Shown: positions 33,901 through 62,575 of the stretch, in pieces
How positions within the stretch are numbered: the stretch's first letter is position 1
How the letters are laid out: each line of letters begins with the position of its first letter
Translations under genes and position numbers: made by a program
Assembly: GCF_000002075.1 (NCBI RefSeq)
Contig: NW_004797607.1
Coordinates: 274,289-338,288 of the forward strand
Direction of reading: 5' to 3'
DNA from: Aplysia californica
Taxonomy: Eukaryota
Length of the DNA: 64,000 nt
Notes under the pieces: generated by a model
What the model was told of the DNA's origin: nothing
The model's database searches: none
Seen by the model: only the letters and a program-made list of their open reading frames with translations

Positions 33901-36900
33901 TGAGTGGATGCTTGACCTTAAGCCTTGAAATGTTATGGTGTTATCTGGCCATAGTCGAAGATAAGAGTAGGATAAAGAAATACAGTACTGAGGTTAAAAT
34001 TGTTAAACAAATTTTGAAAAACATGCAACAAAAAGTGGACTTTCACTTTTTCGATCAAGACAAAAAGTGGACAGAGATCTTTCTTTTTTTTTTTCAGAAT
34101 ATTTTCTTCCATCAAATGTGAACTTCATCCTTTTCAAGAAAGAAGATGATCAGCATGTGAAAATAACAGCCTAAATCAGACTTTTGCCAAATCAAAAAGA
34201 CTCCTTTTAATGTTCTTGGCACAATGACTTACCATCTTGTCATATAAAGTATAAATGTGTCAAGACACGGTAGGGTCAGGTACTTGTCAACTTTTGAACA
34301 TGTAGAGTTATTAATATCATCTTAAAGCTTGTTCATTTGTCTTGCAAAATCATGCCTTCGAAACACCATGGGTTAGGATTTTGCTTCCAGCTTTGTACTC
34401 TTGGTAAATGTAGACTCAGGCCCCATGAGTTGTGAATGGGAGGCGAATTGTTAAAAGAGTTTTCCCAAGATGTCTAGAACAGTATAGTCAACGCTTTTCA
34501 CTTATGTCTGGTAATAAGTTGGTGCAAGATGTATCGTAGTTTAATTTTTCTGTAGTTGCTATAATAGAGTTTGCTCATATGCTCGGTGCCCGCTTGCAGG
34601 CTGAAGAATTCCACAAGAAGGCCCATGGGTTGCTTGATTGGCTGGCAGATGCAGAGAGACAACTCCGCTTCAAGGGAATCATTCCTGACGAGGAGTCAGC
34701 CATCTTACAGCAGATTGATGACCACAAGGTTTGTGTTTGCAAAACTCCACTTTCTGTTTTTATATTTGAACTTGTAAAATGAGGGGGGGGGGGGGGTAAA
34801 AAAATTTTTTTGAGAAACGGCAATAGATTTCAGAGTAAGGATTGATGACTGTATGACCATTCAGAGAATTTTGTTCTAGTTACTGTATAGAAGTTTGATA
34901 TTTAGAAGGCAGTACTCAAACCTCTTCTCATTTCTGATACAGTTGGTTGATTTGTGTTCTTGTGGGGTCTGCTCTTTCTCCTTGGTTTTCTTTAACTGTT
35001 ATCCTTATCAGTTCTTAGTAAAACAGGGCTCTTGTTGTGCTAAGTCAGCCTGAACTGCAACATAGGAGAACAATAGCTTTCGTTTGACTTCCTTAAACTG
35101 ACATTTAATGTGACTGCTTCTGTCCACCTCAAGCCCATCACAAATCAGATCCATGATAACCATATTTCCAACAGCACTCTTGTTATTACCCTTGTTACTG
35201 AGTAGTTTTAAGGAGAGGGGGAGGGGGGTTCTGCTTGATATCAGTACTAGAATGGGTGGATTGAGGGTGTCACTAGTAGGTCCTACTTCTTTTCTTTCCC
35301 TTTGTTGTTTCTGTCTCTCTGTCTTGCTTTTTTCCTGCATTAAATGACCATTATTGTGTGGATTTTCTTCTTTTTACTGAAAAAAACCCAACTAATATCA
35401 GCACTGGTATTGTTTTAACCGCAAAAAAGTATTTTTATGTTATTTTTTTCATCTCTTTTGCTGTTACTGTGCAGAAATTCGAGGAGTCCATGCTGAGACA
35501 GGAGTCGGCTCTGAGGGAAACGCTCAACATTGGTCAGGACATTATGAAGAGGTGCCATCCAGATGCAGTGTCCACCATGAAACACTGGCTGGGTGTTCTA
35601 CGCACCAGATGGGAAGAGGTAGGATTTTCCTTTGTCTATTGATGGGAGAGTTCTGACATATGACTGCTCTAGACTGCGGTGTGTGTGCACTAATGCAAAA
35701 TGGATATGTGTTATGGGTGAATGAAAGGAATGACATGGAGTAGAGAGTAAAAATCGTTCAATGTGAGATGTTATGGGTGAATGAACAAAATGACATGGGA
35801 GTAGACAGTAAAAATCTTTTAAATGTGAGAGTAGGTGTTTGTACAGCATACGCCTACTATAAAATGACCACTTTTTTCACTGTCCTTTCGTGTATAGTTA
35901 ATGTATGGTTGTGAAAGTTTTTCTTTATGTGGTTGAACTGGTTTTTCTTGTTTTTGTTCATATTTTTTCTTGTGTGAATGATTATGTGATTGGTGTAAAG
36001 CGCTCAGAGCTTATATTAGTATGGGATAGAACGCTATATAAATGAAATCTATTTATATTATTATTATTATTATTATAATAATATTATTATTGTTACTTTA
36101 TATGAAGTATTACATCTGAACAAAAAGAAATGATAAATGCTTTGTGTTGTTTGACAGCTGATGGGCCTGAGTCGACAGAGACAGCGTCGCTTGACAGAAG
36201 CTATGACCAATGCAAGGAGAAACAACACTTTGTTAGATGAACTTTTGGCGTGGCTCAACGGGGCAGAGGTCAAACTCACTGACCTTGACCGTGAACCCAT
36301 ACCAAGGGATCTTCAAATTATTCAGGACCTGATCTCCCAACACCAGGTGAGTGGAAAAGAAATTGTTAAGTGGGGTGATTGGGGGGGGGGGGGGGGAGTA
36401 CTGAAGGCTCCTCCACCTCCCTCTAGAATTCAGAGAACTCAAGGCTTTTTCTGCCCAGGTATTTAACAGTTTTTTCGTACTTGCTCGGGGTGAAAAGAAT
36501 CAATATCAATATTATACGAAGATATCTCCAACCTTATCTTGTAATTTTTGCGCTATTGCTGCTGTTTTGGGAATTTTAACATCGTCATATTCTGTGCATC
36601 CACAAAATTAGATAAAACACTTTTTGCGCTGAAAAAATGCAATTTCTTTATCTTCCAAACTTGATTCTTTTTTTTTAAATTATTATTATATTAACTCCTA
36701 TGGTAATTTTGGTTTCAATAGCATAATTTGAGACCAAAAAAAACAAAACATGATTGACCAGGTTTGGCCACTACAGGGTTACCGTCAAACTCCGACAATA
36801 AATAGTTTAGTTATTCAGGTTTGAATGAATTATATTGCACTGCTAACTGTTTGACAGTTATTTTGACAATACTGTTTGACAGTTATTTTGACAATACTGT

Positions 36901-39900
36901 TTTCTTCACTTCAACTCTGATCAAATTTTTTTTTTGAGGTAGTTGTTGTACCTGATTTTTTTCAAAACGTGTGGGACAGCAGAGATATTTTTGTCATGTT
37001 TTCTAGGGCTTCCAAAATGAGATGTCCTCCAAACAGCCAGATGTGGACAGACTAACCAAGGCAGACAAGAGGAGAGCAGGGTCTGTGACAGATTCTTCCC
37101 ACATTCCAGTGTTCCGTGGTTCCGGTCGGTCCACTCCGAGGTCGAGAATTCCTACCATCCGGTAAGTGAATTTTAGTGAAATAATATTGTTGTTGGCTCC
37201 GAACTTCCATTTATATCACTGATAACAAGGGCAATAAAAAAAATTTTGATGTCTGAATTAAATATCATTTACAGTATCTAGCCTCTTGTGTGACTTGAGA
37301 CCTATGTGCCCTTTGTCAAGATTATACATAAATATGTTTCCTTTCAGAGCAGAAACAATTTATCTGGTGTTTGGTTTTAATCTCATTTACCAGTTTCCCT
37401 TGCTCTTTTTTGTTGCTGTTTTCTTTGTGACCTTTGAATGAAAAAGGAAAATACTTGTTTCCCCATCCTCCAGAGTTGACCGAGCTGACAGTTCCGGCCG
37501 AAGGACACCTGACCACCATGGACGTAGGACACCAGAACACTTCTCCGGCCGCCGTACACCAGACATGAGTGGTCGCAGAACGCCTGATGTTTCAGGGCGG
37601 GTAACTCCTGACCACCACTCAGGTCGCAGAACGCCAGACCACCACACCGGTCGGCGAACGCCTGAGCCCGCCTTCAACAACCCACGCGTGGGAGGCCTCT
37701 TTAACAAGTGGCGTCAAGTCTGGCTTATGGCCATGGAGAGACAGCGCAAACTACAAGATGCTCTCGACTACTTGAATGAGGTAAGTTTTCTACAACACAG
37801 CTGTGGGAAATTCATTTTGCTACACAATTTTGTGGGAAATTCATTTTGCTACACAATTTTCCAGTAGACAGTTCAGTACTCACCAGATGTTTTCTTAGCT
37901 GTACTTGTTTAGTTGAAAGGGTTTTTTATAGGTGTCATCAGTTACTATTTGTTCTGCTATGTTTCTTTGGAAATACGATGTTTAATTTTTCATGCTTGCA
38001 ATAATAAAATCCGGGATTATTCATAAAAGTATTGTAGAAATGCCATTACGTTTTAAACTGAAGCATCCTTGAGCACTTGTCTTTTGTCCTACATGTCCTT
38101 ATATCTATCAATACTTCAAGTTTCCATGATGAATAGCGAAAGTTCTCTGAGAATTTTTAGATACTGTCATAACTTGCACTTTGCTTTTTTCTTTTTGTAT
38201 ATCATTGGCATAAACGTCTCCTTTTTCACAGATAGAGCAACGTAAAGCTAAGGTTTGTCATGAGTTGGTTGCCACACAATTTTTTCCGCACAGTCATTTC
38301 ATCTATTTGACCAGTGTTATTTCTGTGTTCATGTTTGACTGGATGGGTTTTTTCAGGACTTTGGATTCTTTGATGATAACTCCAAACTATTGCTCCTACT
38401 CACAATGAAAATTTGTAAAGTTTCGCTTCGTGTGGATAAGTGTTATCTTCCCATCCTCCTACTGGTGTTTCAGATCAAAGAAAGATTTTTTTTTCTGTTT
38501 AAATTGGTAATGGGATTTGTTAAAATGATATTACCCTATACCGCGCTTCAGTGAACAGGATATTTAAGTACTCTGAATTATGCTTTAGTAGATCGTAATG
38601 ATGAACAAATTGACCTCACATTTACGTTCATTATGATGCATCGTCTGTCACAGATATCTGACATTTCCAACTTACAAAAATTTCTTTCTTTTCTATTTTT
38701 TTCACAATATTTCTATTATCATTTAATAAACTTACATTTTATTTCATCATAACTCTTGAGGCCCTATGAAACTGACAAACTTTGTTGTTTATTGATTGAG
38801 GGCTTAAGTTCTGTTTCTTATACATCTGTGACATCTGTGAAAGCAATTTTGTGTGTGTGTGTTCAACTGACTATATTTAAACAAAAGTGTGTGTCACCAG
38901 CGAAAGCTTTTCATCAATATAGCTATTGAGTGAATATATTCGTACACATTGATGTTTGCAGTTTTGGAGCACTGTCAAATAAACATGTCTGAATTTTGTC
39001 AAGATTCTTTCTATCATGGCTTTTCCAAGAAAATGATTTGTTCTCTCAAAAAAAGCTCTTTTTTTTAGTTTACCGGGTTGAATACAAACTGTTTTAACAC
39101 TTTCTACTAACTTAAACTTTTTTTTTTTTTTTTTTGAAATGGCACAAGTATTAGACATTGTGTTCAACTAAATTGACGCTGTGACTTGAAAGGTGACATG
39201 GTGGTAGCAGACTTATTAGTTGTAATGAAAATTGGGAAATACATTACTGTTATTCAAGATTTCATTTTGGACGCTTACTCATCTCACTGTGTGGACACTT
39301 ACTTTTTAAAGACTGTCGAAAAGGAGAAACTTTTTGTAGTCATGAATGAAATCGATACTAAAATAGTTTTCGACAAAGTCATTCATTATTTGAATTGCAA
39401 AAACAGATTCAACGTAAATGACAGAATCCTGCTCCAATTTTTTATGCTTAAGTGACATACATGCAGTTATTTTGTCTTTTGAACCCATTATTGTTCCTCT
39501 TGTCAAATAGAAGTATTCCCTTTTTTTAATTAGAGTTGAAAAAAAGTTCTAATAGTTTGAGGATGGCAGTGGATAGTCAGGTTATTCCTGTTTTTTTTGT
39601 AGATGATTAGGTCATGGATTCTGATTCTTCCAAACACTTTCTCTGTGTTTTGTTGGGTTTTTTTATCCATTCTTGTTTTAAAATTTTTTTGCTCAGAATT
39701 ATGTTTTCATTTTTCATCCACTTATTAATTTAAAGCAAGACATTAAAGTGCATTCTCTATAAATCTGTTGACCAAGTACGGGAATTATGTGTTGGATGTT
39801 GCTCTTGGCAACTGGTTGCACTGTCTTTCTCATGATATTCATTTCATTTGTTGATTTCACAATTATGATTCTGTCAGTTTCACATCAGAAACATTTTGTT

Positions 39901-41977
39901 CAAGCATTCCTATTTTTAAGGAGATTTTAGATATTGAAATTTGTTACAGAAATAGAACCATATAGTTTTTGTTTGTCTCGAAAGAAAGGGGTTAAGAGGC
40001 ACAAATATTTCCGAACAACCCAATCCACAGATACTAGTAAGTGAAATATTTTTTTGTCACTCGTACTGTCTCCAAGTGTAGAAAATTAGGGTCATAGTAA
40101 GCTGGAAAACATTTTGGTCAACCAAATCATTTACAAATACTTTTAGAGGCTCACATGCGCTTTCATTCATTCTCACGTTTGCAGTTTGAGACAATCTAAT
40201 TGGGAGAAAGCCCCTAGCAGTGTTCTTAAAATGTTACTTTTTTCCCAAGGTTTGATTGTTGACGTTTTCGTCTTTTCCCTCCTGTACAGTTGGAGAGGTT
40301 GAAAAACTTTGAATTTGACGACTGGCGCAAGCGTTACCTCAGGTGGATGCACCACAACAAGGCTCGCATCATGGACTTCTTCCGTCGCCAGGATCGGGAC
40401 CGAGATGGACGTGTCACACGCCAGGAGTTCATTGACGGAATCCTCATGTCCAGTAAGTCACATAAATCCCAAGTATCATTTCACTGAATCTGGCACATTT
40501 TATGTGAAAGGTATGAGTGTCTTGCAGCCTGTTAAAATTCGCCAGATCACTTCATTTTAATGATTACCACAAAAGCACCCAAAGAGTAAAAGGCAGGGGG
40601 TTAGATGGCACTGCTGTTTGGGCTTTGTTCTTATGTCTGCTTCTCTTCCTTTTTCCTTTCACTAAATGACCGTTATTGTGTTGATATACATTTCTTTACT
40701 TAAACAAAGAAAAAACAAGAATAAAATCATACTGCACATTGAGGCTTCATCACTTTTTTTTTACCATTTCCATCTTGTAGACTGGGCTATTTCCCCCTTT
40801 CAAAGTATTTTTGCCATTCCAGAATTAATATCTACAGTGAAAATTAAATTTTATATAGGCCTACTTACTTTTTCCTTTCATATTTGCCTTTTTCATTGTG
40901 TTTAGAGAGACGCATTTAATTTTTGTAATTTGATTTTTTTTTTCAGCTGTAGGGCTTGTGTAGTATGTTTGAAGAAGTGTTTTGGGCTACAAGTGCATCC
41001 AACAGTTCATTTTAGTGAGACAAAACATATGACTGACGGTTTAGACTGTTTGTCTCTGAACACATTTAGGCAGGATCCATGCCTGTCTGTAGCAATCTGG
41101 GTGTCACTCTACCTCAAAATATTTCCATAAGGTTTCTGAGGTTAATGGATATGTGCTGAATTTTTATACTGCTTTCTTCCCTGCAAGTGAAATGTATTTT
41201 GTAATCTTGATTACCCAACAGGTCTACTGTACATTTTTCAGTTTGAGAGTTTTGTGAACTCACATTTTAAACTTTTTTTCGAGCAGAATTCCCTACGTCT
41301 AGGCCAGAGATGGAGGCTGTTGCTGACATCTTTGACAAAGATGGTGACGGTTTCATCAACTACAAGGAATTTGTGTCAGCTCTTAGGCCTGACAGAGATG
41401 TAAGTACTGGGACATTTGATCTTTAACTTTTTTTTTCTTCAGGTTTATGGATAGGCCTATCACAGATTATTTTGCTTTGGTAACTTAAAAATTGTAATTG
41501 AATTAACTCTGTTAATGGTGTTCTTGAATGAAGAGAGGTCCTATCTTCTATTGAAACAGGATATTGTCATTTAAAAAATAAAAGTTCTGATATTTACATT
41601 CTACCAAGTTAGTTAGCTCTGATTGTTTGATGCTTGATTTGTTGTGGGCATCAGGTTTTATTATTCCAATTCTAAACTTACTTTTTAGTTTTAAGATTAT
41701 CTGCACTCTGTCTTATTGGAGACAAAGATTTATTTTCTGATCTGACTCGTGGTATGCTTTATGTTGAAAAGAGGGTACATCTCAAATTTTGTTAACTTTC
41801 TAACATGGACTTGTGTTTTTGCTCTCAGGTGAAACCAGAGACAGAGTCGGAGAAAATCATGGATGAGGTCAAACGCCAGGTGTCCAAGTGCACATGTGTG
41901 AAACAATTCAAGATACACAAGATTGGAGAGGGAAAATACAGAGTGAGTCTCTTTTTTTTGTCCTTATTGTGTGAGTC

Positions 41978-42009
<32 letters not shown>

Positions 42010-45000
42010 CGGGGGGGTTGTGTTTGGAGAGAGCAAATTTTTTTAGAGTCTCAAGATGTGTTAATGCATGTTTGTGAGTGTGTATTTATGTGTATTAAAG
42101 TGAAAGGGCACGAAAGAGAGAGAGAGATGGGGTCTTTGGTTGGTAGAGAGAGAAGGAACAGGCATCACAATATTAGAGGGCAAAGGTAGAGTAAATCTCT
42201 CTGGACTAATGAGTTTGTGTTTTGTTCTCATAGTCCGTGCTTATGTAACCTCAGTACTTTAGTAACTATGTTTTGTCTGTTTCGAATCTTTTCAAAATGA
42301 GGAGAGAGGGGGAGTGCTTATAGATGAAATATTCTGTCAATTTCCCTGTAAATATCATCTTCTTCTGTTTCCCTTCAGTTCGGTGATTCTCAGAAACTTC
42401 GCCTGGTCCGCATCCTTCGTAGCACAGTGATGGTGCGTGTCGGAGGTGGCTGGATCGCTTTGGACGAGTTCCTGGTCAAGAATGATCCGTGCAGAGGTAA
42501 ATGTTTTTTCTTTTCATTCTAGCTTTTGAAAGAAGCATACAGTATTTTCATAGCTTTTGGTTATGTATTTAAAAAATGTTTTTATGTGACTTTGTTAATG
42601 TTTGTTCCTGTGTTTCCCTTGTATTGATAAATAATTCCATATCTGAATGTGTTTTCAAACATATGAGGTAGGGTGTATTCTGGAAGCTCTTTTAAGAGCG
42701 TGTAGGTTCCAGTTTTCACAGCTACTGTGTAGAAATGTCGGTGCAGTTCCAAGCAATTGATTGTTTGGTATGAATATATAAGGCTTTAGGTACTACCATA
42801 CTAATTAGTACGAGGCAGTCTAACATTCTGTGCTTTGATATCTGCAGTATCATTGTAGAACTAGTAATAGTTTTTTCCAAAAACTTTTTTCGTCTTTTAA
42901 AAAAAAATATTATTCCAAAAAATGTGTCGAGTAGAAATTGATAATTTTAGCCCACTTTAAAGCTTTACAATAACAGTTTGAGAGGCGCTGACTTAAGCAG
43001 TTGGGTCTCTAGATAAAAAGCCTAATTTTAAAAGTCTAGTTTTTTTTTACTTCTTTTATCCCTTACAACTTCATCTCTGTGAAAAATATGCATGCTCAGC
43101 TATACGTTACCCATCCATGGCAGATGCAACTCATTTTCACTGCCGCGTATATATATGAATAGATTATTCCTTTTTCCTCTTGCCCTGATGTTATGACTTA
43201 CATTATGCTGTATACTGATGTATTTTCATCCTTCTTTTCCCCGTGAACACGAACAATCTCTGTGGCCTCTCAGAGTTTGTTGAGATTGCTGGTAAAATTG
43301 AATTTTCTTATATATCCCATGAAAGGCAGCGGGACATTTTAATTCTTTTTCACAGAACACTGACCTTCATAACACACACACACACTGGTGCGCAGACACA
43401 CACACTTACAAACACACAAACAGACACACGTATGCACGCACATGTGCGTGCTCACATCATGCCCACTCGCACTTACCCACACAGATGCACTAAACTGCTT
43501 GCTTTGTGTTATGGTATCGCAGAGGTTCATGATTTTGTTTATCAGATGATATCAGATGATATCAACTCACGGTCTCAGACAATCCTCCCTACATCAATTG
43601 TGTTTGATTTGCCCTTTTATTTTCATTTTACATTTTCGCCCCTAGCTGTAGTTTTTAGTTGTTTTTTTGTGTGGTTTTTTTCTTTTACAAGCCTATTACC
43701 AAAGACTGTGAACTACAAGACTGTTGTTTCGGTTGTTTTTATTGATTTGTGCAACTTCATATAGGCTAATATTGGCCTAGTTGTGAAATACTTTTTCTTT
43801 CACCAGCATTTATCTTTATGCCGGAAAATTGTGTTCCACAGAAAGAGAACCTTTTGAAAATGTGCGTACTAAGCTGATATAACAGTTTGTTCAGAAATAG
43901 CGAAAAATTGGAGGATGAAAGTAAATACGTGTAATTATGAGCTTTCAGAAAAGCAGAATGCTTGCATATTACTGTAAGCGATTTCTGTGTTATTTGCTGA
44001 AATAACATGAAAGAGCTATGTGTGCCTCCATTTGTTGTGGTAGGCAAGGTAGTCAGGTCACGCAGCACAGTTCAGTCATTTGTCTTATAGTTCACAGTCT
44101 TGAATAAGATTTAGCTGCCTTTGTTAATCCATGATCATTTTGTTTTAGTACACAGGGAAAAGAATAGATTGAATGTCTATGAGGACATTAACATGCTAGG
44201 AATGGCCCTTATGACATGCTTCAAGTTTAGTGAACATTTATTCAAGTATTGTGGGGTATTGATGTGGATGCAAGAGGCAAGATCTATCTGTTGACCCATG
44301 TCATCAACAGAACCTGTGAAGTCAGAATAGCTAAAAGTTTGGGGTCTTTTTTTCTTTCATTAACATGGTTCAAGAACTAGATTGTATTTGGGTTTTTCGT
44401 CTTGTTTTCTTTTGTTTTTGTTTGGGTTTTTTAGGGTGGAGGGAGGGAGGGAGGGTTCATTTGTGATGATTTGATGTATTTCAACAGGATATTCATTGGG
44501 AATTTTGAAGCCATAATGAAATATTTTTCTTTAGGAATTGCAGGTGCTCAGTGCTAAAAAAAAAATGATGCTGTTTGATTATGGGGAAAGCAGCTTTGTT
44601 TTAATTTTTACTTCTATCATTTATTTACCTTTTGCATTTGAAACCATTCAGAATTTCGAAAACTGTCACCCTACCGTAAGTATAGAACAGCATAATCAAA
44701 TTTATGAAACGTGTATTGAGTTGTCTCCGTGTACGCAAACACACACACACACAACTTGGCGGATAGGGTGCGCGGTAGCCCATGTACTGGCCTTTCCCCC
44801 TATCATTACCCTCCAGCCCTCATCATATATAGTAATGTCACTCAACCGTTATATACATCAACCCCTCTGCCCTTCCCCCCCACTTGATCTCATTTTTCTT
44901 TAGCGGAAAACGTGACCAAAGCAATCTTGTGTGTTGGCAAGGTTTCCTCCTCTAACACTGAGCCGTATTTGTGATACTTTAAAAAAAATTATTCATTCAT

Positions 45001-47297: not shown

Positions 47298-50200
47298 CCC
47301 CCCGCCCCCTTCTGTTTAGTGTATTATGCACTTTTACCCAGCCTGTGTGTTCTTCTCTCCTCTACATCGCCATACCTGTTGTTAGTATGTAGAAATAACA
47401 CCTTTTTTTTTACTAAGTGAGACTGACATAATATCATGATCATGGTCACATAATTTCACATATTGTTCTCTCTCTCTCTTTCTCTGATAATAATATCGTA
47501 GTGTGTTTCTGTATTTTGTGTGCACATTACAACTTCGTCGAGGAATGTAAAACCTCTAATTACTCCTGGCACTGCCAGAAGAGCTAACTTTAGCTTTAGC
47601 TGATGACTTTACTTATTATCTATGTCTGTCAATGCTCAGGTAGAAAAATTGAGCTACCGTATCATCACAATACTATATTAGTGGCTGAAAATAGAATCGT
47701 TTTATTTTTTTGGTTGTTTGTTTAAAGTTAAAGTCATCCAGTGTACATTTCTGTGGTTCTATTAATTTCTTGGACCCATTACACTGAAGTACTTTACCGA
47801 AGAAATCTGTATTCAGTGTATCTGGAGTCGACAAATTTTCACGTTTTTTTTAAAGCAAAGAATGTTCGTTTTTATTTTGATTTATGTAATGATGGACTCT
47901 TGGGTATATTATAAACAATTATAAAGATTTTTTTGCTTCTTTAGTTATTGATCCTGTAGTGGGGGGAGGGAGGGGGGGGGGTATATGCAGTGTTAACCTG
48001 AGTCATTTGTCCACTCTGGATGTTGTTTTTGTCTTGAGTGTGATACTCTTTGTTGAAATATTTATTCATGAAGGTCTTTCAGTTTTACTTCTACAGGTAT
48101 ATGACACATTGTGTTACTGGCTGATATTACGGATAACTTTTGCCATTCAGTATTTGACTTTGTTCAAGTCTCAATCTCTCCACAGTTTCTTGCAGGTCAC
48201 TCAGTGCATCAACTTGAGTTGGTTGAAGTTCAGATCCCCATCTCTTTTGTGATCAGTATTTTCCATTACTGATGTCGGAGATTTTCTCAAAATGTTATGG
48301 CTTACAATCGTGTGTAAATGTTAGTTTCTCATTTGTGTACTTGTTTTCTCTCTGAAAAGTTGGCCTTTGGAGGAGGAAGCAGTTCCGTTTGAAACGGCGC
48401 TATCTTCACCATCAAAATCCTGATGAATGTAGGTTGACCTTCACCTTCAGCATGTCGTGTGCTGAAGACGTTGCTGTTTCTTGTGCCTGGCTCCTCCTGC
48501 TCCCCTTTCCATTCAGTTTTTGTCATGGCTTTTGACCTTTTTTTATTCCTTCGTGGAAAAATTCCTGGTTTTTAACTGGCCTGAGTTTGTCTTGTAATGT
48601 TTTTGTGTCTCTTAATGTTGCCCGATTTATTTTCATGTGCATGTTGTCAAGATGTGTGAGTAGGCCTGAGTCCAAAGGTTCCTTCAGCAGCAGTTTGCAT
48701 TGTAAAAGAAACCTTTTTCCGCGGGGCCAGCAATGTGAAATGGACTTACGCTTTTTAATTAATTTTTTTTTTTTTTTTTTCTCTGATGAAGTGATAATTT
48801 GAAAATGAAAGTTTTGTCGCTTTATGGTTCAAGTTTATCTTTAAAACATTTTCCTGTCGATGTTGTACTGAAGCTTTATGTAAATTCTAACTTGTCGGGA
48901 ATGTTTCTTTTGCTGCATTATTTTTCTCAGATCTTTTAATACTATCTAAATGCCAACTGTGTCTCTTTGAATTGAGAAATGTCTGACTTTCTCTCCAAAG
49001 ATATTTGTGTGCATTTTGTGTGCTAATTATTTTTTTCGAGATCTTTGCTTGGACCATTTTGTTATATATGTGTTGTGGGATAGGCCGGAGTTTGATGTTC
49101 CCATAGAAGTGGTACCTGTGCTTGATGTGACCCTTTTGGTTTCATTCCAGATGTGAATTTTGTCTACTGTTTTGTTTATTTCATGAGTATTTTAGTGGAT
49201 GTCCCAATTGAGCTGTTATAAATTGGGGAAACTGAATCATCTAATAAAGTGTGAATAGTATTAGTATGAACGCTGAGACTGAAATGATAGCTATGAGACT
49301 CAGCTACTGTGAATGCACACACTGTGAGCCATGTAGCCCTGTTGTTCCACACTGATAGCATTACCTCATGAAGTAGGCCAGAGAATGTAGGAATTTGGCC
49401 CTCTTATTTGTTTTGTCACTAACCATGAAAATATTCCTGTCGTCCAACACCGCTGGTATAAAAGCCAAATATACAGAAAAGGTACTGTAATTATAAGACC
49501 TTTCAAAATAAAGATGAAGCTGATTACAATGAAGCCGTTCACAAAAACAGAACTAAAAAGTTGGTGAAGAAAAGAAAAAAACAGAACTAAAAAGTTTGTG
49601 AAGAAAAGAATAAAGTTAAAAAGCTGTAGAGAAGTAAAGAAGAGGAGGCTGTCATGTTGTCTCTTTGTTGATGTGGCTAACTTATCGTTGCCACAATCTA
49701 TTTTGTTCCTCAATATTTAAAACAGAATAAAATGTTTGCCTTGATAGGAGTGCCAACAATAAATTCTTTAATTTGTCAAGTTTAGAGAATCACAAATACT
49801 ACCTTATGCAGTTGCAAGCGCCGTAAAACCTCTACTAAAACTAAAATCACAAATTTCTTTGTGCCCTTGATAGAGGATGCAAAGTTAAAGCTTTGCATGA
49901 TGACATAGTAAACAGAAATGGAGTAGTTACTAACAATGAACCGAAAATAGGACTGTTGGTAAACTAAATTATGAAAATGGGATATCTGCATAGAAAGGAA
50001 CTTTCTTGTACTGATATTGTCTTATGAAATTAAAGTATAAAGAGAGGTTGAGACCATTTGAAAAAAAAAATATATTTATTATAGCATAATAATATGATAT
50101 TTATTTCCTGGGATATGATAACCTTTCGCCTTCTCAGCTATAGTTGAATATGGGGGGGGAGGGGGGGATTTTTTTAATTTTCCCTGTCCTCTACCCTTTT

Positions 50201-53200: not shown

Positions 53201-54163
53201 TTTTATGTCTGAAAAAAGTTACAGACCCAATAAGTGTCTCCAGTCTTACCTGGGCCAATGGGAAATGGGGGCTGAAAAAATAGTCTGGTGTTGTTAGTTA
53301 TAGGTACACTGCAACCCCAAAGAGCACACTACTCTTTACAACATGATTGGAATCTGAATTATGGTACCAAAAATTTATTTTTTTCCAGGTTGGGGGGACG
53401 AGATAGAATTCTATATTTTAGAGGAGAATCCTTTTTGTTTTTGAGTATAATTCTCTTTAGTCCTTTATCTATCCAGTCCAAGAAGGCAGTAATAAGTACA
53501 ACTGTCTGAATGTAATCAGTAAGATGTGAAGTCAACACAGAGAATTCTTGGTTTGTTTTTCTCACTAGAGCTTCCAGCTTGCTTTATTATAGGCCTCCTT
53601 GACTGACATAAATCAGATAAAAATTGAGAAGGTGGTGTGAGAGCTATTTCTGTCTATAGTGTATGGTGAACTGCAAGCAAATTGTCTTTTTCATTTAAAG
53701 ATATGAGGAATCAAGCTGTGATTTTGAGCTTTTTCATTCTGTTCTTATTCCAAATCTAGCAAGTCAGATGTTGAAAAAGCTGAGCAATGGACCTGTCATT
53801 TTAACCCATTCTTTTCTGCCGCGTTCCCATATGTTTTAATTCACCGGTATGAAGGAATCAATCAATAATTTCAGCCCACTTTTTGTTCTCTCCCCTTTCC
53901 CCACCCCAGTGAGTCGCAGCTCAAGTAGAGCCAGCACAACGGGCAATGGTAGCCGTCCGCAGAGCAGAGCAGGCAGTGAGGCGTCCGATGACCCTGAGGT
54001 CTTCACCACCATGCAGACCGAGCGGAGAAGCGTCGGCGGTCGCAACGACACGACAGTCACGTACCAGACGCATCGCCTACAGACCAAGAACGTAACTTTA
54101 CCCACGGTGACCACCACCAAGATCTCCAGGATTCCCAAGATTTCTCCTACAAAGAAGAAGTAG
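3678..54163 (+). CDS. MACF1: Spectraplakin (MACF1/dystonin/Shot family), 5'-partial multi-exon gene: spectrin-repeat rod, 2 EF hands, GAR domain, Ser/Arg-rich tail
   Basis: 53 GT-AG exons chain in consistent phase to TAG at 54161-54163. Diagnostic motifs: [109 protein letters not shown]. The symbol denotes the family; an invertebrate gene would be co-orthologous to MACF1/DST (shot). Confidence 0.95.
4160..4206. repeat. (GA)n microsatellite
   Basis: Direct reading. Confidence 0.95.
4494..4623 (+). CDS. MACF1: Spectraplakin exon 2
   Basis: tttcag|GAG..CTCG|gtacat; [19 protein letters not shown]. Confidence 0.9.
5210..5409 (+). CDS. MACF1: Spectraplakin exon 3
   Basis: cacag|AT..AAG|gtgagt; [20 protein letters not shown]. 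Confidence 0.9.
5801..5957 (+). CDS. MACF1: Spectraplakin exon 4
   Basis: tttcag|GTG..CAAG|gtaatg; [16 protein letters not shown]...KTWNKLQ. Confidence 0.9.
6380..6555 (+). CDS. MACF1: Spectraplakin exon 5
   Basis: catcag|GG..CAG|gtcagt; [30 protein letters not shown]. Confidence 0.9.
6869..6919. repeat. (CA)n microsatellite
   Basis: Direct reading. Confidence 0.95.
7268..7430 (+). CDS. MACF1: Spectraplakin exon 6
   Basis: ctgtag|GAT..TTGG|gtgaat; [23 protein letters not shown]. Confidence 0.9.
7962..8128 (+). CDS. MACF1: Spectraplakin exon 7
   Basis: ttctag|AA..AAG|gtgagc; [27 protein letters not shown]. Confidence 0.9.
8689..8847 (+). CDS. MACF1: Spectraplakin exon 8
   Basis: cttcag|AAT..ACT|gtgagt; [20 protein letters not shown]. 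Confidence 0.9.
9288..9458 (+). CDS. MACF1: Spectraplakin exon 9
   Basis: ccacag|GTG..CAG|gtaaga; [10 protein letters not shown]...[12 protein letters not shown]. Confidence 0.9.
9540..9690 (-). mobile_element. Old tRNA-derived SINE fragment
   Basis: Minus strand TGTGGTGTAGTCATTAAGCAC...GAGTTTGATTCC; CTTCGACCCTGCCTGTCA shared with 60462-60480 and, inverted, about 32235-32255. Confidence 0.55.
10276..10426 (+). CDS. MACF1: Spectraplakin exon 10
   Basis: cccag|GCT..TCAG|gtcagg; [19 protein letters not shown]...INRRWDNIS. Confidence 0.9.
11264..11433 (+). CDS. MACF1: Spectraplakin exon 11
   Basis: ctccag|GT..AAA|gtaaga; [15 protein letters not shown]. Confidence 0.9.
11745..11920 (+). mobile_element. 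Retroposon family A copy (diverged)
   Basis: TTGGCAGGTGTTCTGATATGGCTTGCTCC...GCAAGTCCTGTAAAACTC...CTAAAAC. Confidence 0.65.
12085..12294 (+). CDS. MACF1: Spectraplakin exon 12
   Basis: cccag|GCT..CAG|gtatgg; [17 protein letters not shown]. Confidence 0.9.
12816..12929 (+). CDS. MACF1: Spectraplakin exon 13
   Basis: ccccag|GAC..AAG|gtgagg; [26 protein letters not shown] (missed by ORF track). Confidence 0.9.
13397..13510 (+). CDS. MACF1: Spectraplakin exon 14
   Basis: ctccag|AAC..CAG|gttagt; [13 protein letters not shown]. Confidence 0.9.
13583..13875 (+). mobile_element. CORE-like tRNA SINE with L2/CR1-type tail
   Basis: Degenerate tRNA head, TTGTGTTCTTGAGAAAGGCACTT core, tail AGCGCATAGAG...; related tails at 25520-25700, 35990-36095 and 10620-10690. 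Confidence 0.55.
14212..14424 (+). CDS. MACF1: Spectraplakin exon 15
   Basis: ctgtag|GTC..AAG|gtgaag; [19 protein letters not shown]...KEQQEELK. Confidence 0.9.
14938..15099 (+). CDS. MACF1: Spectraplakin exon 16
   Basis: ttccag|AAG..AAG|gtaatg (NAGNAG acceptor); [18 protein letters not shown]. Confidence 0.9.
15562..15732 (+). CDS. MACF1: Spectraplakin exon 17
   Basis: ttacag|GTG..AAG|gtgaga; [29 protein letters not shown]...[10 protein letters not shown]. Confidence 0.92.
16264..16590 (+). CDS. MACF1: Spectraplakin exon 18 (327 nt, one repeat period)
   Basis: ccccag|CTT..AAG|gtcagt; [13 protein letters not shown]. Confidence 0.92.
16966..17050 (+). CDS. MACF1: Spectraplakin exon 19
   Basis: ctgtag|CAT..AAAG|gtaaaa; [23 protein letters not shown]. 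Confidence 0.88.
17476..17699 (+). CDS. MACF1: Spectraplakin exon 20
   Basis: cttcag|GT..CAG|gtaact; [17 protein letters not shown]...[11 protein letters not shown]. Confidence 0.9.
17820..18170. repeat. CT-rich compound microsatellite with internal duplication
   Basis: (CT)n/(CTGT)n; block GACTCTCTCTAATTCTGTCTCTCCCTCTTTCTGTCTTTGACTCTC occurs twice. Confidence 0.85.
18281..18487 (+). CDS. MACF1: Spectraplakin exon 21
   Basis: ctacag|AAC..GAG|gtgagt; [20 protein letters not shown]. Confidence 0.9.
18901..19020 (+). CDS. MACF1: Spectraplakin exon 22
   Basis: ccacag|TGT..AAA|gtgagt; [15 protein letters not shown]. Confidence 0.9.
19761..19963 (+). CDS. MACF1: Spectraplakin exon 23
   Basis: tcatag|GCC..CAA|gtgagt; [17 protein letters not shown]...LEQALPLA. 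Confidence 0.9.
20586..20765 (+). mobile_element. Retroposon family A copy ending next to the exon 24 acceptor
   Basis: Same head and tail as 52318-52490. Confidence 0.75.
20784..20907 (+). CDS. MACF1: Spectraplakin exon 24
   Basis: ttgcag|G..AAG|gtgagg; [17 protein letters not shown]. Confidence 0.9.
21185..21391 (+). CDS. MACF1: Spectraplakin exon 25
   Basis: ccacag|GCC..GAG|gtgagt; [20 protein letters not shown]. Confidence 0.92.
21870..21989 (+). CDS. MACF1: Spectraplakin exon 26
   Basis: ttacag|TTT..AAG|gtgagg; [12 protein letters not shown]...[17 protein letters not shown]. Confidence 0.92.
22328..22436 (+). CDS. MACF1: Spectraplakin exon 27
   Basis: ttacag|GCT..AGAG|gttggt; [24 protein letters not shown]. 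Confidence 0.88.
23360..23586 (+). CDS. MACF1: Spectraplakin exon 28
   Basis: gtccag|AC..GAG|gtcagt; [15 protein letters not shown]...EKFWEDL. Confidence 0.92.
24145..24300 (+). CDS. MACF1: Spectraplakin exon 29
   Basis: ttctag|GCC..AAG|gtttgt; [16 protein letters not shown]...[13 protein letters not shown]. Confidence 0.9.
24380..24568 (+). mobile_element. Retroposon family A copy
   Basis: Same head and tail as 52318-52490. Confidence 0.75.
24646..24965. repeat. 33-bp minisatellite, 9 copies, ending in the exon 30 acceptor
   Basis: TTGTCAAAGCAAACTG(C/A)CTTTGCTGTTGCTGTC; copies 7 and 8 carry an extra TTGCTGTC; array ends TTGTCAG. Confidence 0.95.
24966..25136 (+). CDS. MACF1: Spectraplakin exon 30
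   Basis: tgtcag|GTG..AAG|gtgggt; [29 protein letters not shown]. Confidence 0.9.
25762..25932 (+). CDS. MACF1: Spectraplakin exon 31
   Basis: tctcag|GTG..CAG|gtatgc; [23 protein letters not shown]. Confidence 0.92.
26235..26621 (+). mobile_element. Retroposon family B (non-tRNA head, shared hairpin tail)
   Basis: GACTGAAGTGTCTTTAGGCCAT...GATAGTCGAAGCAG...GGCGCTCATATG...(CTAAAA)n; colinear with 57205-57585 and 58686-59043. Confidence 0.85.
26646..26801 (+). CDS. MACF1: Spectraplakin exon 32
   Basis: ttccag|CGA..AGG|gtaagt; [13 protein letters not shown]...[14 protein letters not shown]. Confidence 0.92.
26808..26943. repeat. 4 exact tandem copies of a 34-bp unit (left TIR)
   Basis: CAAAGATAGTACAAGACAAGATGGGCCACTCAGC at 26808, 26842, 26876, 26910. 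Confidence 0.95.
26808..27406. mobile_element. Non-autonomous TIR DNA transposon (P-element-like MITE) with 4x amplified left end
   Basis: 30-bp TIR CAAAGATAGTACAAGACAAGATGGGCCACT / AGTGGCCCATCTTGTCTTGTACTATCTTTG; flanking direct repeat GGTAAGT (7 bp; 9 bp GGGTAAGTC if the terminal C/G are counted as target). Confidence 0.85.
27840..28024. mobile_element. Old Tc1/mariner(pogo)-type MITE copy
   Basis: CAGTTGAAATTGTCT...TTTGTACAGGTGATTATCTTGT...CACTG|TA; colinear with 32845-33028. Confidence 0.6.
28075..28272 (+). CDS. MACF1: Spectraplakin exon 33
   Basis: cctcag|ATT..GAG|gtgaag; [16 protein letters not shown]. Confidence 0.9.
28625..28753 (+). CDS. MACF1: Spectraplakin exon 34
   Basis: ccatag|GCC..ATG|gtaact; [15 protein letters not shown]. 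Confidence 0.92.
29092..29372 (+). mobile_element. Degenerate tRNA-derived SINE (related central domain)
   Basis: GTAGCTCAAC...GGGATTCGATCCCC head; AAGAGTAGGCCC...GGGCGAAATTTAAAAT body. Confidence 0.55.
29579..29749 (+). CDS. MACF1: Spectraplakin exon 35
   Basis: cctcag|GAG..AAG|gtcaga; [16 protein letters not shown]. Confidence 0.9.
30250..30405 (+). CDS. MACF1: Spectraplakin exon 36
   Basis: ttacag|AAA..AGA|gtaagt; [24 protein letters not shown]. Confidence 0.92.
30927..31133 (+). CDS. MACF1: Spectraplakin exon 37
   Basis: aaacag|GGA..CAG|gtgtgt; [24 protein letters not shown]. Confidence 0.93.
31545..31664 (+). CDS. MACF1: Spectraplakin exon 38
   Basis: ttccag|TTC..AAA|gtgagt; [12 protein letters not shown]...[11 protein letters not shown]. 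Confidence 0.92.
32365..32531 (+). CDS. MACF1: Spectraplakin exon 39
   Basis: ctcaag|GAG..GACAG|gtaggc (AAG acceptor); [14 protein letters not shown]...[11 protein letters not shown]. Confidence 0.88.
32845..33028. mobile_element. Old Tc1/mariner(pogo)-type MITE
   Basis: TA|CAGTTGAA...TTTGACTG|TA; related copies at 27840-28024, inverted at about 4733-4912, fragment near 7085-7147. Confidence 0.6.
33189..33348 (+). CDS. MACF1: Spectraplakin exon 40
   Basis: cctcag|G..AAG|gtgagg; [25 protein letters not shown]...PVHGDL. Confidence 0.93.
33705..33899 (+). CDS. MACF1: Spectraplakin exon 41
   Basis: aaccag|GGA..CTG|gtgagt; [16 protein letters not shown]...[12 protein letters not shown]. Confidence 0.92.
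34600..34728 (+). CDS. MACF1: Spectraplakin exon 42
   Basis: ttgcag|GCT..AAG|gtttgt; [24 protein letters not shown]. Confidence 0.92.
35475..35618 (+). CDS. MACF1: Spectraplakin exon 43
   Basis: gtgcag|AAA..GAG|gtagga; [22 protein letters not shown]. Confidence 0.92.
36158..36346 (+). CDS. MACF1: Spectraplakin exon 44
   Basis: tgacag|CTG..CAG|gtgagt; [25 protein letters not shown]. Confidence 0.92.
37007..37161 (+). CDS. MACF1: Spectraplakin exon 45 (last repeat, loop with SxIP motifs)
   Basis: ttctag|GGC..CCG|gtaagt; [51 protein letters not shown] (missed by ORF track). Confidence 0.9.
37474..37780 (+). CDS. MACF1: Spectraplakin exon 46 (GRRTP array + end of last repeat)
   Basis: ctccag|A..GAG|gtaagt; phase 2-0; ...[34 protein letters not shown]. 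Confidence 0.9.
38232..38252 (+). CDS. Candidate 21-nt alternative microexon (IEQRKAK)
   Basis: ctcctttttcacag|ATAGAGCAACGTAAAGCTAAG|gtttgt; phase 0-0 matches flanking exons; no stop. Confidence 0.55.
40290..40452 (+). CDS. MACF1: Spectraplakin exon 47 (EF hand 1)
   Basis: gtacag|TTG..TCCA|gtaagt; EF loop [12 protein letters not shown]. Confidence 0.95.
41287..41399 (+). CDS. MACF1: Spectraplakin exon 48 (EF hand 2)
   Basis: gagcag|AA..GAT|gtaagt; [34 protein letters not shown]. Confidence 0.95.
41829..41942 (+). CDS. MACF1: Spectraplakin exon 49 (GAR domain N-half)
   Basis: tctcag|GTG..AGA|gtgagt; [31 protein letters not shown]. Confidence 0.95.
42379..42496 (+). CDS. MACF1: Spectraplakin exon 50 (GAR domain C-half)
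   Basis: cttcag|TTC..AGAG|gtaaat; [39 protein letters not shown]. Confidence 0.96.
43274..43291 (+). CDS. Candidate 18-nt alternative microexon (EFVEIA)
   Basis: ctctcag|AGTTTGTTGAGATTGCTG|gtaaaa; phase 1-1. Confidence 0.45.
44652..44675 (+). CDS. Candidate 24-nt alternative microexon (EFRKLSPY)
   Basis: ttttgcatttgaaaccattcag|AATTTCGAAAACTGTCACCCTACC|gtaagt; phase 1-1; consensus donor. Confidence 0.6.
45554..45568 (+). CDS. Candidate 15-nt alternative microexon (xQIMS)
   Basis: catattcag|TTCAAATTATGTCCA|gtaacg; phase 1-1; weaker sites. Confidence 0.3.
48360..48428 (+). CDS. Candidate 69-nt basic cassette exon ([23 protein letters not shown])
   Basis: ttgttttctctctgaaaag|TT..GAAT|gtaggt; phase 1-1; open; GC-richer than flanks. 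Confidence 0.55.
49798..49844 (+). mobile_element. Tail-only (5'-truncated) retroposon insertion with 10-bp TSD
   Basis: ACCTTATGCAGTTGCAAGCGCCGTAAAACCTCTACTAAAACTAA flanked by AATCACAAAT (49788-49797, 49845-49854). Confidence 0.85.
51269..51429 (+). CDS. MACF1: Spectraplakin exon 51
   Basis: caacag|CC..AAG|gttaga; [26 protein letters not shown]. Confidence 0.93.
52076..52241 (+). CDS. MACF1: Spectraplakin exon 52 (tail)
   Basis: tcatag|GTG..CCAG|gtcagt; [11 protein letters not shown]...SPRSLQSP; phase 0-1. Confidence 0.85.
52318..52490 (+). mobile_element. Retroposon family A copy
   Basis: GGTGGTTGGCAGGTGCTCTAGTGTGGTTTGCTCC...TATGACCTTATTGTGTTGCAAGTGCTGTAAAAC. Confidence 0.8.
52652..53170 (+). 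mobile_element. Same tRNA-derived SINE family, diverged full-length copy
   Basis: GGGGCTCTGGTGATCTAGAG...GGTTCAAATCC head; colinear with the reverse complement of 61123-61620; tail GCAGTTGCGAGCGCCGTAAAAC. Confidence 0.85.
53910..54163 (+). CDS. MACF1: Spectraplakin terminal coding exon (SR-rich tail, SxIP, stop)
   Basis: ccccag|TG; SRSSSRAS...[13 protein letters not shown]...[16 protein letters not shown]. Confidence 0.9.
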
Positions 54164-61620: not shown

Positions 61621-61954
61621 CTATATATATATATATATATATATTAATATATATATATAGATAGATATATATATATAATATATATATANNNNNNNNNNNN
61701 NNNNNNNNNNNNNNNNNNNNNNNNNNNNNNNNNNNNNNNNNNNNNNNNNNNNNNNNNNNNNNNNNNNNNNNNNNNNNNNNNNNNNNNNTATATATAATTA
61801 TAGTAGCGCGTCAACCGGTGAAATAGTTTCTTATCAGCGTGATCCGGGTCGTGCAGATCATTGGTTGCTGACATAATACTGTTATTGTATTATTGTATCA
61901 TAATACAACCGTTGGTGTGGTGACACATGAGAGTCTTCATAACTTCATGTCAAC

Positions 61955-62575
61955 AAATTGAAGTTCAATTTATTGAGAGAAAGTTGCCATCGATCATTGC
62001 AAAAAAAAGGAGAAAAATCAATACAACGAAGGAAGAATGAAGGACCACAATACATAAGGAAGGACAAGAAAAAAAGTAAACATGAATAAATCAATAGAAA
62101 GTAAAGTAAAAAGAAAATTAAAGTTCAATTTACTTAGATCAATTTACATTGATCATTGCAAAATAAGAAGGAAAATCAATGCAACGAAGGAAGGATGAAG
62201 TAACATAATTCTGTAAAAGGATGGAAACAAGTGGGCATGAACAAAATCAGTAGAAAGTACATTTAATAATAAACTTCAATTTATTGAGAACAACTTGCCT
62301 TCCATCATTGCAAGAAAAGAAAAAATGCAATGCAATATAAAGGAAAAACGAAGGACCACATTAAGGCAGGAAAGGGGGAAAGTAAACATGAACAAAATCA
62401 ATAGAGAGTAAAGTAAATAACAAACTAAAGTTCAATTTATTTGAGAAAAAGTTTCCATCAATCATTGTAAAACAAAAAGCAAAGTCGAAGCAACGAAGGG
62501 ACGATGAAGGACCACAATAATGAGAGGAAGGAAACCAGCTGCATGAACAAAATCAATAGAAAATAAAAGCATAAC
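61955..62575. repeat. Diverged tandem repeat, about 155-bp period, about 4 copies
   Basis: AAGTTCAATTTA...GATCATTGCAAAA...CAACGAAGGAAG...CATGAACAAAATCAATAGA recurs near 61961, 62121, 62272, 62428. Confidence 0.85.

What the first reader, a model, noticed from the sequence alone, without database searches (positions are those of the whole stretch)
37493..37666. Seven-copy (S/T)GRRTP(D/E) peptide array inside the last spectrin repeat
Seen: [59 protein letters not shown], plus SGRSTP in exon 45. Codons differ between copies while the amino acids are kept, which points to selection on the protein rather than recent DNA slippage. Known: TP is a proline-directed kinase site, S/T-x-x-x-pT is the primed GSK3 consensus (6 of 7 copies fit), and GSK3 regulates MACF1 microtubule binding through its tail. 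Inference: an expanded multisite phospho-switch loop that I do not recognise from vertebrate MACF1/DST, with His pairs possibly adding pH or metal sensitivity.
Basis: partly seen in the sequence, partly recalled or inferred. Interest (0 to 1): 0.7.

Follow-up and report, generated by a model that had tools for sequence, protein, structure and literature searches.

The report
Snail-wide kinase-site repeat in spectraplakin loop
A giant cytoskeletal linker protein of snails carries five to nine copies of a short G-R-x-T-P motif in a likely floppy loop, right behind an SxIP motif that vertebrate dystonin has at the same place, so the repeat likely acts as a phosphorylation switch that would release this possibly overlooked second grip on microtubule-tip (EB) proteins.

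Summary
The array is real: seven G-R-x-T-P-(D/E) units at 37493-37666, in exon 37474-37780 of a gastropod spectraplakin (Shot/MACF1/dystonin type), spliced in from the upstream acceptor. It lies in a predicted disordered loop between helices B and C of the last spectrin repeat. It is not peculiar to this species: 8 of 8 gastropod orthologues carry 5-9 copies, bivalves 2, vertebrates none. The conserved core is G-R-x-T-P-(D/E); that fits the DYRK consensus (72 of 77 units), not CDK (5 of 77) or ERK (0 of 77). The GSK3 position is kept in 47 of 77 units and lost in Haliotis; His pairs occur only here. Best reading: a CLASP2-like SxIP-plus-multisite-phosphorylation module. Neither phosphorylation nor EB binding is shown. 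A new variant of a known kind.

The parts
37493..37666 (+). Seven G-R-x-T-P-(D/E) units, period 8-9 residues; units 3-5 form an unbroken S/T-x-x-x-S/T chain of six residues
37474..37780 (+). Exon with the array and helix C of the last spectrin repeat; acceptor and donor both seen used in RNA-derived sequence
37007..37161 (+). Exon with the end of helix B and the first half of the loop
37097..37108 (+). SxIP motif 1 (SHIP), at the position conserved in molluscs, one hagfish gene and vertebrate dystonin
37121..37138 (+). Eighth proline-directed site (SGRSTP) between the two SxIP motifs; bivalves have a GRxTP at this place
37142..37153 (+). SxIP motif 2 (SRIP), present in 4 of 8 gastropod orthologues examined besides this one
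36158..36346 (+). Exon with helix A and the start of helix B of the last spectrin repeat (Pfam Spectrin positions 7-44 of 105)
40290..41399 (+). Two exons of the EF-hand pair (40290-40452, 41287-41399)
41829..42496 (+). Two exons of the GAR microtubule-binding domain (41829-41942, 42379-42496)
53909..54163 (+). Last exon: short Ser/Arg (GSK3-type) cluster, the canonical tail SxIP (SRIP, 54125-54136) and stop codon; start of the exon approximate

Best explanation
The array is a snail-wide expansion of one ancestral G-R-x-T-P site in the predicted disordered B-C loop of the last spectrin repeat, and it likely works as a multisite phosphorylation switch on the neighbouring SxIP motifs, which would bind EB proteins at microtubule tips. 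Shown: the loop (100 residues here) holds two SxIP motifs and eight S/T-P sites, is spliced in, and both elements are conserved. Inferred: unphosphorylated, the loop is basic (net +11) and would support EB binding and contact with acidic tubulin tails next to the EF-hand/GAR module; an Arg-directed proline kinase (DYRK type) would phosphorylate the threonines, GSK3 would add the -4 serines where present and relay along 8-residue units; charge would fall to -5 (eight sites) or lower, and this grip would let go, as in CLASP2. Copy number would set the threshold.
For: Array in 8 of 8 gastropod orthologues with a whole loop, 5-9 strict copies, across Neomphalina, Vetigastropoda, Caenogastropoda and Heterobranchia (clade names recalled); unit order is shared between caenogastropods and heterobranchs, so it is old. 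Over 77 units of 12 arrays: G-3 75, R-2 73, position -1 free (R 43, K 12, Q 8, seven other residues), matching the DYRK2 consensus Rx(x)S/TP with Arg at -2 (PMC7658070 passages); T, P and D/E counts are built into the unit definition. GSK3 chains of 5-11 residues in 6 of 12 arrays. SxIP at the same place in 8 of 8 gastropods, 2 of 2 bivalves, 1 of 2 hagfish genes, 21 of 22 dystonins, against 17 in 129,433 residues elsewhere in these proteins. The next S/T-P lies 4-27 residues behind the first SxIP in all 11 mollusc loops. Loop pLDDT under 50 in the Candidula model. Net charge +8 to +14 turns to -4 to -7 in 9 of 9 gastropod loops if every S/T-P is phosphorylated. Precedent: GSK3 multisite phosphorylation around the two SxIP motifs of CLASP2 removes plus-end tracking (PMC2699158, PMC6373834, PMC4365484 passages).
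Against: No phosphorylation and no EB binding were observed. In one loop alone an SxIP is unremarkable (3-17% of composition shuffles), and the orthologues share ancestry, so the counts are not independent. SxIP motif 1 has an acidic residue two places before it here, and dystonin's has D/E three places behind it, which is thought to weaken EB binding (recalled; the source papers were not held). The GSK3 step is absent in Haliotis (0 of 6) and weak in five caenogastropod-like arrays (chains of 2-3). The protein keeps its ordinary tail SxIP, so the loop site may be redundant. MACF1, arthropod, nematode and flatworm spectraplakins (0 of 58 loops) and the second mollusc paralogue do without it. 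Lineage-specific homogenised units (Haliotis 7-residue, Gigantopelta, Candidula) show ongoing repeat turnover. Kinase assignment by motif alone is weak.
Confidence: 0.42

Rival explanations
1. The loop is a basic microtubule-lattice or intramolecular contact beside the EF-hand/GAR module, switched off by phosphorylation of the array, without EB proteins; it would copy the role of the GSR tail.
For: Net charge +8 to +14 in 9 of 9 gastropod loops; insect and crustacean loops are also long (up to 135 residues), basic and rich in S/T-P yet have no SxIP (0 of 34); GSK3 phosphorylation of the GSR tail uncouples MACF1 from microtubules (PMC8012552 passages).
Against: It does not explain why S/T-x-I-P is kept at one place from molluscs to dystonin.
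Confidence: 0.22
2. The array is tolerated slippage in a loop that accepts any length; only the last unit (GRRTPEP, at the start of helix C) matters.
For: Loop length runs from 4-5 to 135 residues across animals; copy number varies 5-9 and units are homogenised by lineage; a 27-bp DNA period is still visible over the last three units; bivalves manage with two sites.
Against: No gastropod orthologue has fewer than 5 copies (8 of 8); G-3 and R-2 are nearly fixed while -1 and the linkers drift; T-P is kept in 9 of 9 units between Candidula and Bradybaena and 5 of 5 units in 6 of 6 cluster members listed with P0006 that have the exon; synonymous sites between copies are near saturation.
Confidence: 0.16
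3. The array is a docking scaffold read by phospho-Thr-Pro binders (Pin1/WW type), as the Spt5 C-terminal repeat is.
For: The array passes Pfam's cut-off for PF12815 (Spt5 C-terminal repeat), 25.7 against 25.4 bits; Spt5 CTR1 is G-S-R/Q-T-P repeats phosphorylated on Thr (PMC13557439 passages).
Against: The match is marginal and on low-complexity sequence; Spt5 has S at -2 where this array fixes R; no reader is known here; it leaves the SxIP unexplained.
Confidence: 0.12
4. The conserved I-P-V/L with the basic cluster at the end of helix B is a MAP-kinase docking motif rather than an EB site, and the T-P-D/E units are JNK/p38 sites.
For: A K/R cluster 7-9 residues before I-P-V/L is seen in molluscs and dystonin; D/E at +2 in 76 of 77 units (partly by definition); JNK sites with acidic +2 are recalled, not tested.
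Against: A docking motif does not need the S/T two places before the Ile, yet it is kept in 32 of 34 mollusc, hagfish and dystonin loops; fixed Arg at -2 is not a MAPK feature (recalled).
Confidence: 0.08

Closest known systems
Spectraplakins (Drosophila Shot, vertebrate dystonin/BPAG1 and MACF1)
   Same: Spectrin-repeat rod, EF-hand pair, GAR domain, Ser/Arg tail with SxIP; a loop at the same B-C position of the last repeat; dystonin shares the loop SxIP and mostly one basic-preceded S/T-P.
   Different: Gastropods expand one site to 5-9 tandem copies; published EB and GSK3 sites of spectraplakins are all in the tail behind the GAR domain.
CLASP2 S/R-rich plus-end-tracking region (two SxIP plus GSK3 chains)
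   Same: Disordered basic region, two SxIP motifs, adjoining multisite S/T-x-x-x-S/T chains ending in a proline-directed site.
   Different: No homology; CLASP2 priming sites match (S/T)PX(K/R), the array matches R-x-T-P; this module is looped out of a folded spectrin repeat; function here is untested.
Spt5 C-terminal repeat CTR1 (G-S-R/Q-T-P; Pfam PF12815)
   Same: Tandem Gly-x-x-Thr-Pro units at 8-9 residue spacing; marginal Pfam pass.
   Different: Convergent: cytoskeletal host gene, Arg fixed at -2 and acid at +2, no Spt5 domains.
DYRK-primed GSK3 substrates (CRMP4, eIF2B-epsilon, tau)
   Same: S-x-R-x-S/T-P arrangement: Arg-directed priming site four residues behind a GSK3 site.
   Different: Here repeated up to nine times; the GSK3 residue is missing from 30 of 77 units.

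Membership tests
Spectraplakin | Spectrin-repeat rod followed by EF-hand pair and GAR domain | tested here: met
   Exons in order by tblastn with P0003/P0005; Pfam Spectrin, EF-hand, GAS2 on the orthologue P0002; matches to MACF1 structures 5VE9, 5X57
Spectraplakin | N-terminal actin-binding and plakin domains | not tested
   They lie before the window; orthologues P0012 and P0014 carry CH and plakin-type Pfam families
Spectraplakin | Tail with Ser/Arg repeats and SxIP | tested here: met
   Last exon up to 54163
SxIP microtubule-tip localisation signal | S/T-x-I/L-P in a disordered, basic, Ser-rich context | tested here: met
   37097 and 37142; pLDDT under 50 in the orthologue; loop net +11; one acidic neighbour at motif 1
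SxIP microtubule-tip localisation signal | Conserved across species | tested here: met
   10 of 10 molluscs, 21 of 22 dystonins; lost in MACF1 and arthropods
SxIP microtubule-tip localisation signal | Binds the EB homology domain and tracks plus ends | not testable with these tools
   Needs binding or imaging
Primed GSK3 substrate | S/T-x-x-x-S/T(P), conserved | tested here: inconclusive
   6 of 7 here, 47 of 77 overall, 0 of 6 in Haliotis
DYRK substrate motif | Rx(x)S/TP | tested here: met
   8 of 8 sites in this loop, 72 of 77 units; consensus from PMC7658070; phosphorylation itself untested
CDK1/2/5 substrate motif | (S/T)PX(K/R) | tested here: not met
   0 of 8 here, 5 of 77 units; consensus from PMC2699158
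ERK optimal motif | P-x-S/T-P (recalled) | tested here: not met
   0 of 77 units; ERK can use a bare S/T-P
Spt5 C-terminal repeat | G-S-R/Q-T-P repeats at the end of an NGN/KOW protein | tested here: not met
   Marginal PF12815 pass, but the host is a spectraplakin and -2 is Arg in 73 of 77
His-based pH or metal sensor | Conserved His clusters | tested here: not met
   HH in 1 of 12 arrays; single His at +3 in 24 of 77 units

The most novel reading that the evidence does not exclude
Spectraplakins have a second, overlooked EB-binding site, looped out of the last spectrin repeat upstream of the EF-hands: ancestral to bilaterians, kept in dystonin and molluscs, lost in MACF1 and arthropods. It would make dystonin bivalent for EB dimers and explain a difference from MACF1, and snails have amplified its phospho-switch into a DYRK/GSK3 counter of 5-9 sites.
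Probability: 0.3. Interest if true: 0.68.

Novelty: new variant of a known kind. Interest (0 to 1): 0.42.

Why it matters
Spectraplakins guide microtubules in axons, and dystonin is a human neuropathy gene. The passages read place their EB and GSK3 control in the tail alone. The snail array points to a second regulatory loop inside the rod, with a motif that dystonin has and MACF1 lacks; one IP-to-NN mutation in a dystonin fragment would test it. If the loop SxIP does not bind EB, what remains is a conserved, lineage-specific phospho-repeat of modest interest.

Tried and rejected
Complex prediction of the window's SxIP peptide (32 residues) with two copies of an EB homology fragment from the same genome (49 residues, lacking the end of the domain, no alignments): no verdict, score 0.25 under the mark of 0.34, no controls folded; not used as evidence. 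Two scans of metagenome contigs for DNA of other snails found nothing (596 and 144 pattern hits, none confirmed), so no cross-species dN/dS was computed. The indexed run search listed no holder on record as RNA; only the lay is used, and it covered 36990-37810 only, at low raw-read depth, so rare splice forms are not excluded. Alternative acceptor or exon skipping: rejected. His-pair sensor: rejected. CDK5/ERK priming: motif not met. Derivation from Spt5: rejected as convergence; a search of the own genome with the exon found only itself and one paralogous exon without array (best candidates only). The idea that the array makes up for a short tail cluster was dropped: the bivalve Potamilus has a similar tail without the array. 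No solved structure among 16 matches covers the loop. Earlier scan findings: none. Papers not held: Kapur 2012 and 2014, Buey 2012, Kumar 2012.

Full report
Observation. Shuffling the first 66 residues 50,000 times never gave more than 2 GRxTP. The exon is 37474-37780. Laid on 36990-37810, one contig of run X4 (depth 293) and 2 raw polyA reads of X24 (one start) join 37161 to 37474 over a GT..AG intron, and the contig runs on into the exon at 40290; X22 and X23 gave 4 and 1 reads and no joint. The three differences in that contig are all synonymous and outside the array. The only in-frame AG behind the array would remove most of helix C, and skipping 307 nt shifts the frame.

Host gene. tblastn with two orthologues lays spectrin-repeat, EF-hand, GAR and tail exons in order up to a stop at 54163. 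The nearest named proteins for this exon are from Candidula and Bulinus (67-77%), so the organism is most likely a heterobranch gastropod (inference). An AlphaFold2 model of the Candidula orthologue P0002 on a 40-row alignment shows helices ending at 510 and resuming at 633 with pLDDT under 50 over 514-625. A profile of earlier repeats matches positions 9-65 before the loop and 84-108 after it, and a homologue with a 28-residue loop gives one Pfam Spectrin stretch across it. The array thus sits in the B-C loop of the last repeat. Packing of helix C on A and B was not inspected.

Distribution. Loops were cut from the proteins (120 of 152 hits listed, 150 of 4,158). For counts I hand-grouped 97 rows, of which 96 had a whole loop; most unnamed rows and some redundant vertebrate rows were left out. 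Loop length runs from 4-5 to 135 residues. Strict GRxTP copies: 9, 7, 5, 5, 6, 5, 6, 5 in 8 of 8 gastropod orthologues; 2 in each of 2 bivalves; 0 in 2 hagfish, 22 dystonin and 13 MACF1 loops; one copy in 1 of 34 arthropod loops. The last unit, RTPEP before helix C, is also seen in bivalves and in unnamed P0283, so the array grew from one older site. Unit order is shared between caenogastropods and heterobranchs, while Haliotis (7-residue units), Gigantopelta and Candidula show homogenised runs: old origin with continued turnover. A second, divergent mollusc spectraplakin (Littorina P0118, Octopus P0153, and an exon at L004 in this genome) has a short loop with neither array nor SxIP.

What is conserved. 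Over 77 units from 12 arrays (this one, 7 named, 4 unnamed placed by likeness): G at -3 in 75, R at -2 in 73, -1 free (R 43, K 12, Q 8, others), S/T at -4 in 47, His at +3 in 24; units were defined by T/I-P-(D/E/N/G) with R or K at -1 or -2, so those columns are partly built in. The pattern fits the DYRK2 consensus Rx(x)S/TP (72 of 77; PMC7658070, passages, which also names DYRK2 as GSK3 primer for CRMP4, eIF2B-epsilon and tau). It does not fit (S/T)PX(K/R) (5 of 77; consensus from PMC2699158, passages) or P-x-S/T-P (0 of 77; recalled). Eight-residue units with S at -4 make unbroken GSK3 chains: 6 residues here, 5-11 in 6 of 12 arrays, but 2-3 in five caenogastropod-like arrays and none in Haliotis. 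His pairs occur in 1 of 12 arrays. Within this array pS is 0.75 and pN 0.10 over 21 pairs, a partly circular figure; a 27-bp period remains over the last three units. The array passes PF12815 (Spt5 repeat) by 0.3 bit; Spt5 CTR1 is G-S-R/Q-T-P (PMC13557439, passages). I read this as convergence.

The first half of the loop holds SHIP (37097) and SRIP (37142). An S/T-x-I-P stands at the place of the first in 8 of 8 gastropods, 2 of 2 bivalves, 1 of 2 hagfish genes and 21 of 22 dystonins, and in 0 of 13 MACF1, 0 of 34 arthropod, 0 of 4 nematode/nematomorph, 0 of 7 flatworm and 0 of 4 other loops; elsewhere in these proteins it occurs 17 times in 129,433 residues. Against this: a single loop yields one in 3-17% of shuffles, and the rows share ancestry. 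In the passages read, EB-binding SxIP and GSK3 sites of spectraplakins are placed in the tail: PMC4171495 (one SxIP in the C-tail, defined as behind the GAR domain, and only tail constructs tested), 10.1101/122010, 10.1101/2024.09.08.611864, PMC8012552, PMC4834103, PMC9145010 (no mention). Searches (listings and abstract starts) and a search for the peptides themselves (one irrelevant hit) found no account of the array or of the loop SxIP. Kapur 2012 and 2014, Buey 2012 and Kumar 2012 were not held; Jiang 2012 and all supplements were not seen and may list dystonin's motif.

Mechanism. Shown: a spliced-in, conserved loop with SxIP and eight S/T-P sites next to the EF-hand/GAR module. Computed: net charge +11, falling to -5 with all eight phosphorylated; +8 to +14 falling to -4 to -7 in 9 of 9 gastropod loops, against +6 to 0 in 2 bivalves (this follows largely from the unit's own make-up). 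Known: phosphorylation near SxIP lowers EB binding, and GSK3 chains around the two SxIP of CLASP2 remove tip tracking (PMC4365484, PMC6373834, PMC2699158, passages). Inferred: the loop is a second EB grip switched off by DYRK-type and GSK3 phosphorylation (0.42). Rivals: direct electrostatic lattice contact (0.22), tolerated slippage (0.16), phospho-Thr-Pro docking scaffold (0.12), MAPK docking site (0.08).

Verdict. A real and conserved feature in a known protein family: a new variant of a known kind. The most useful lead is the loop SxIP shared with dystonin. Interest 0.42.

Noticed in passing
L004:1498-1638 (-), G000:C243: Exon of a second, divergent spectraplakin-like gene of this genome, close to Octopus P0153 and Littorina P0118; these have a short loop with no array and no SxIP, and P0118's tail has no SxIP either.
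   Followed up: partly
P0024, P0035, P0066, P0079, P0089, P0105, P0136, P0147, P0161 (same loop): 9 of 16 chelicerate/myriapod-type loops examined hold S-T-P-x-K/R, a CDK site with a Polo-box-type S at -1 (motifs recalled): perhaps a mitotic switch at the same place. The window's SGRSTP also has S-T-P.
   Followed up: partly
P0056, P0080, P0081, P0085, P0087, P0092 (same loop): Insects and crustaceans have lengthened the same loop on their own (80-135 residues) with basic S/T-P-rich sequence but no SxIP.
   Followed up: partly
window 48359-48427: Small basic exon behind the GAR domain (Arg/Lys-rich, about 23 codons), present in Candidula, Bulinus, Gigantopelta and Haliotis models but absent from the Nucella model: likely an alternative exon.
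   Followed up: no
P0002 and P0005: Candidula holds two copies of the gene, with 9 and 5 strict units; both keep two loop SxIP motifs.
   Followed up: partly
window 24646-24964, 26808-26944, 61952-62567: Tandem repeats in introns or downstream: 33-bp x 9, 34-bp x 4 (100% identical), 156-bp x 4.
   Followed up: no
L002:1471-1617: Exon of an EB-family gene (Pfam PF03271, 61 bits), the only match scored in this genome.
   Followed up: partly
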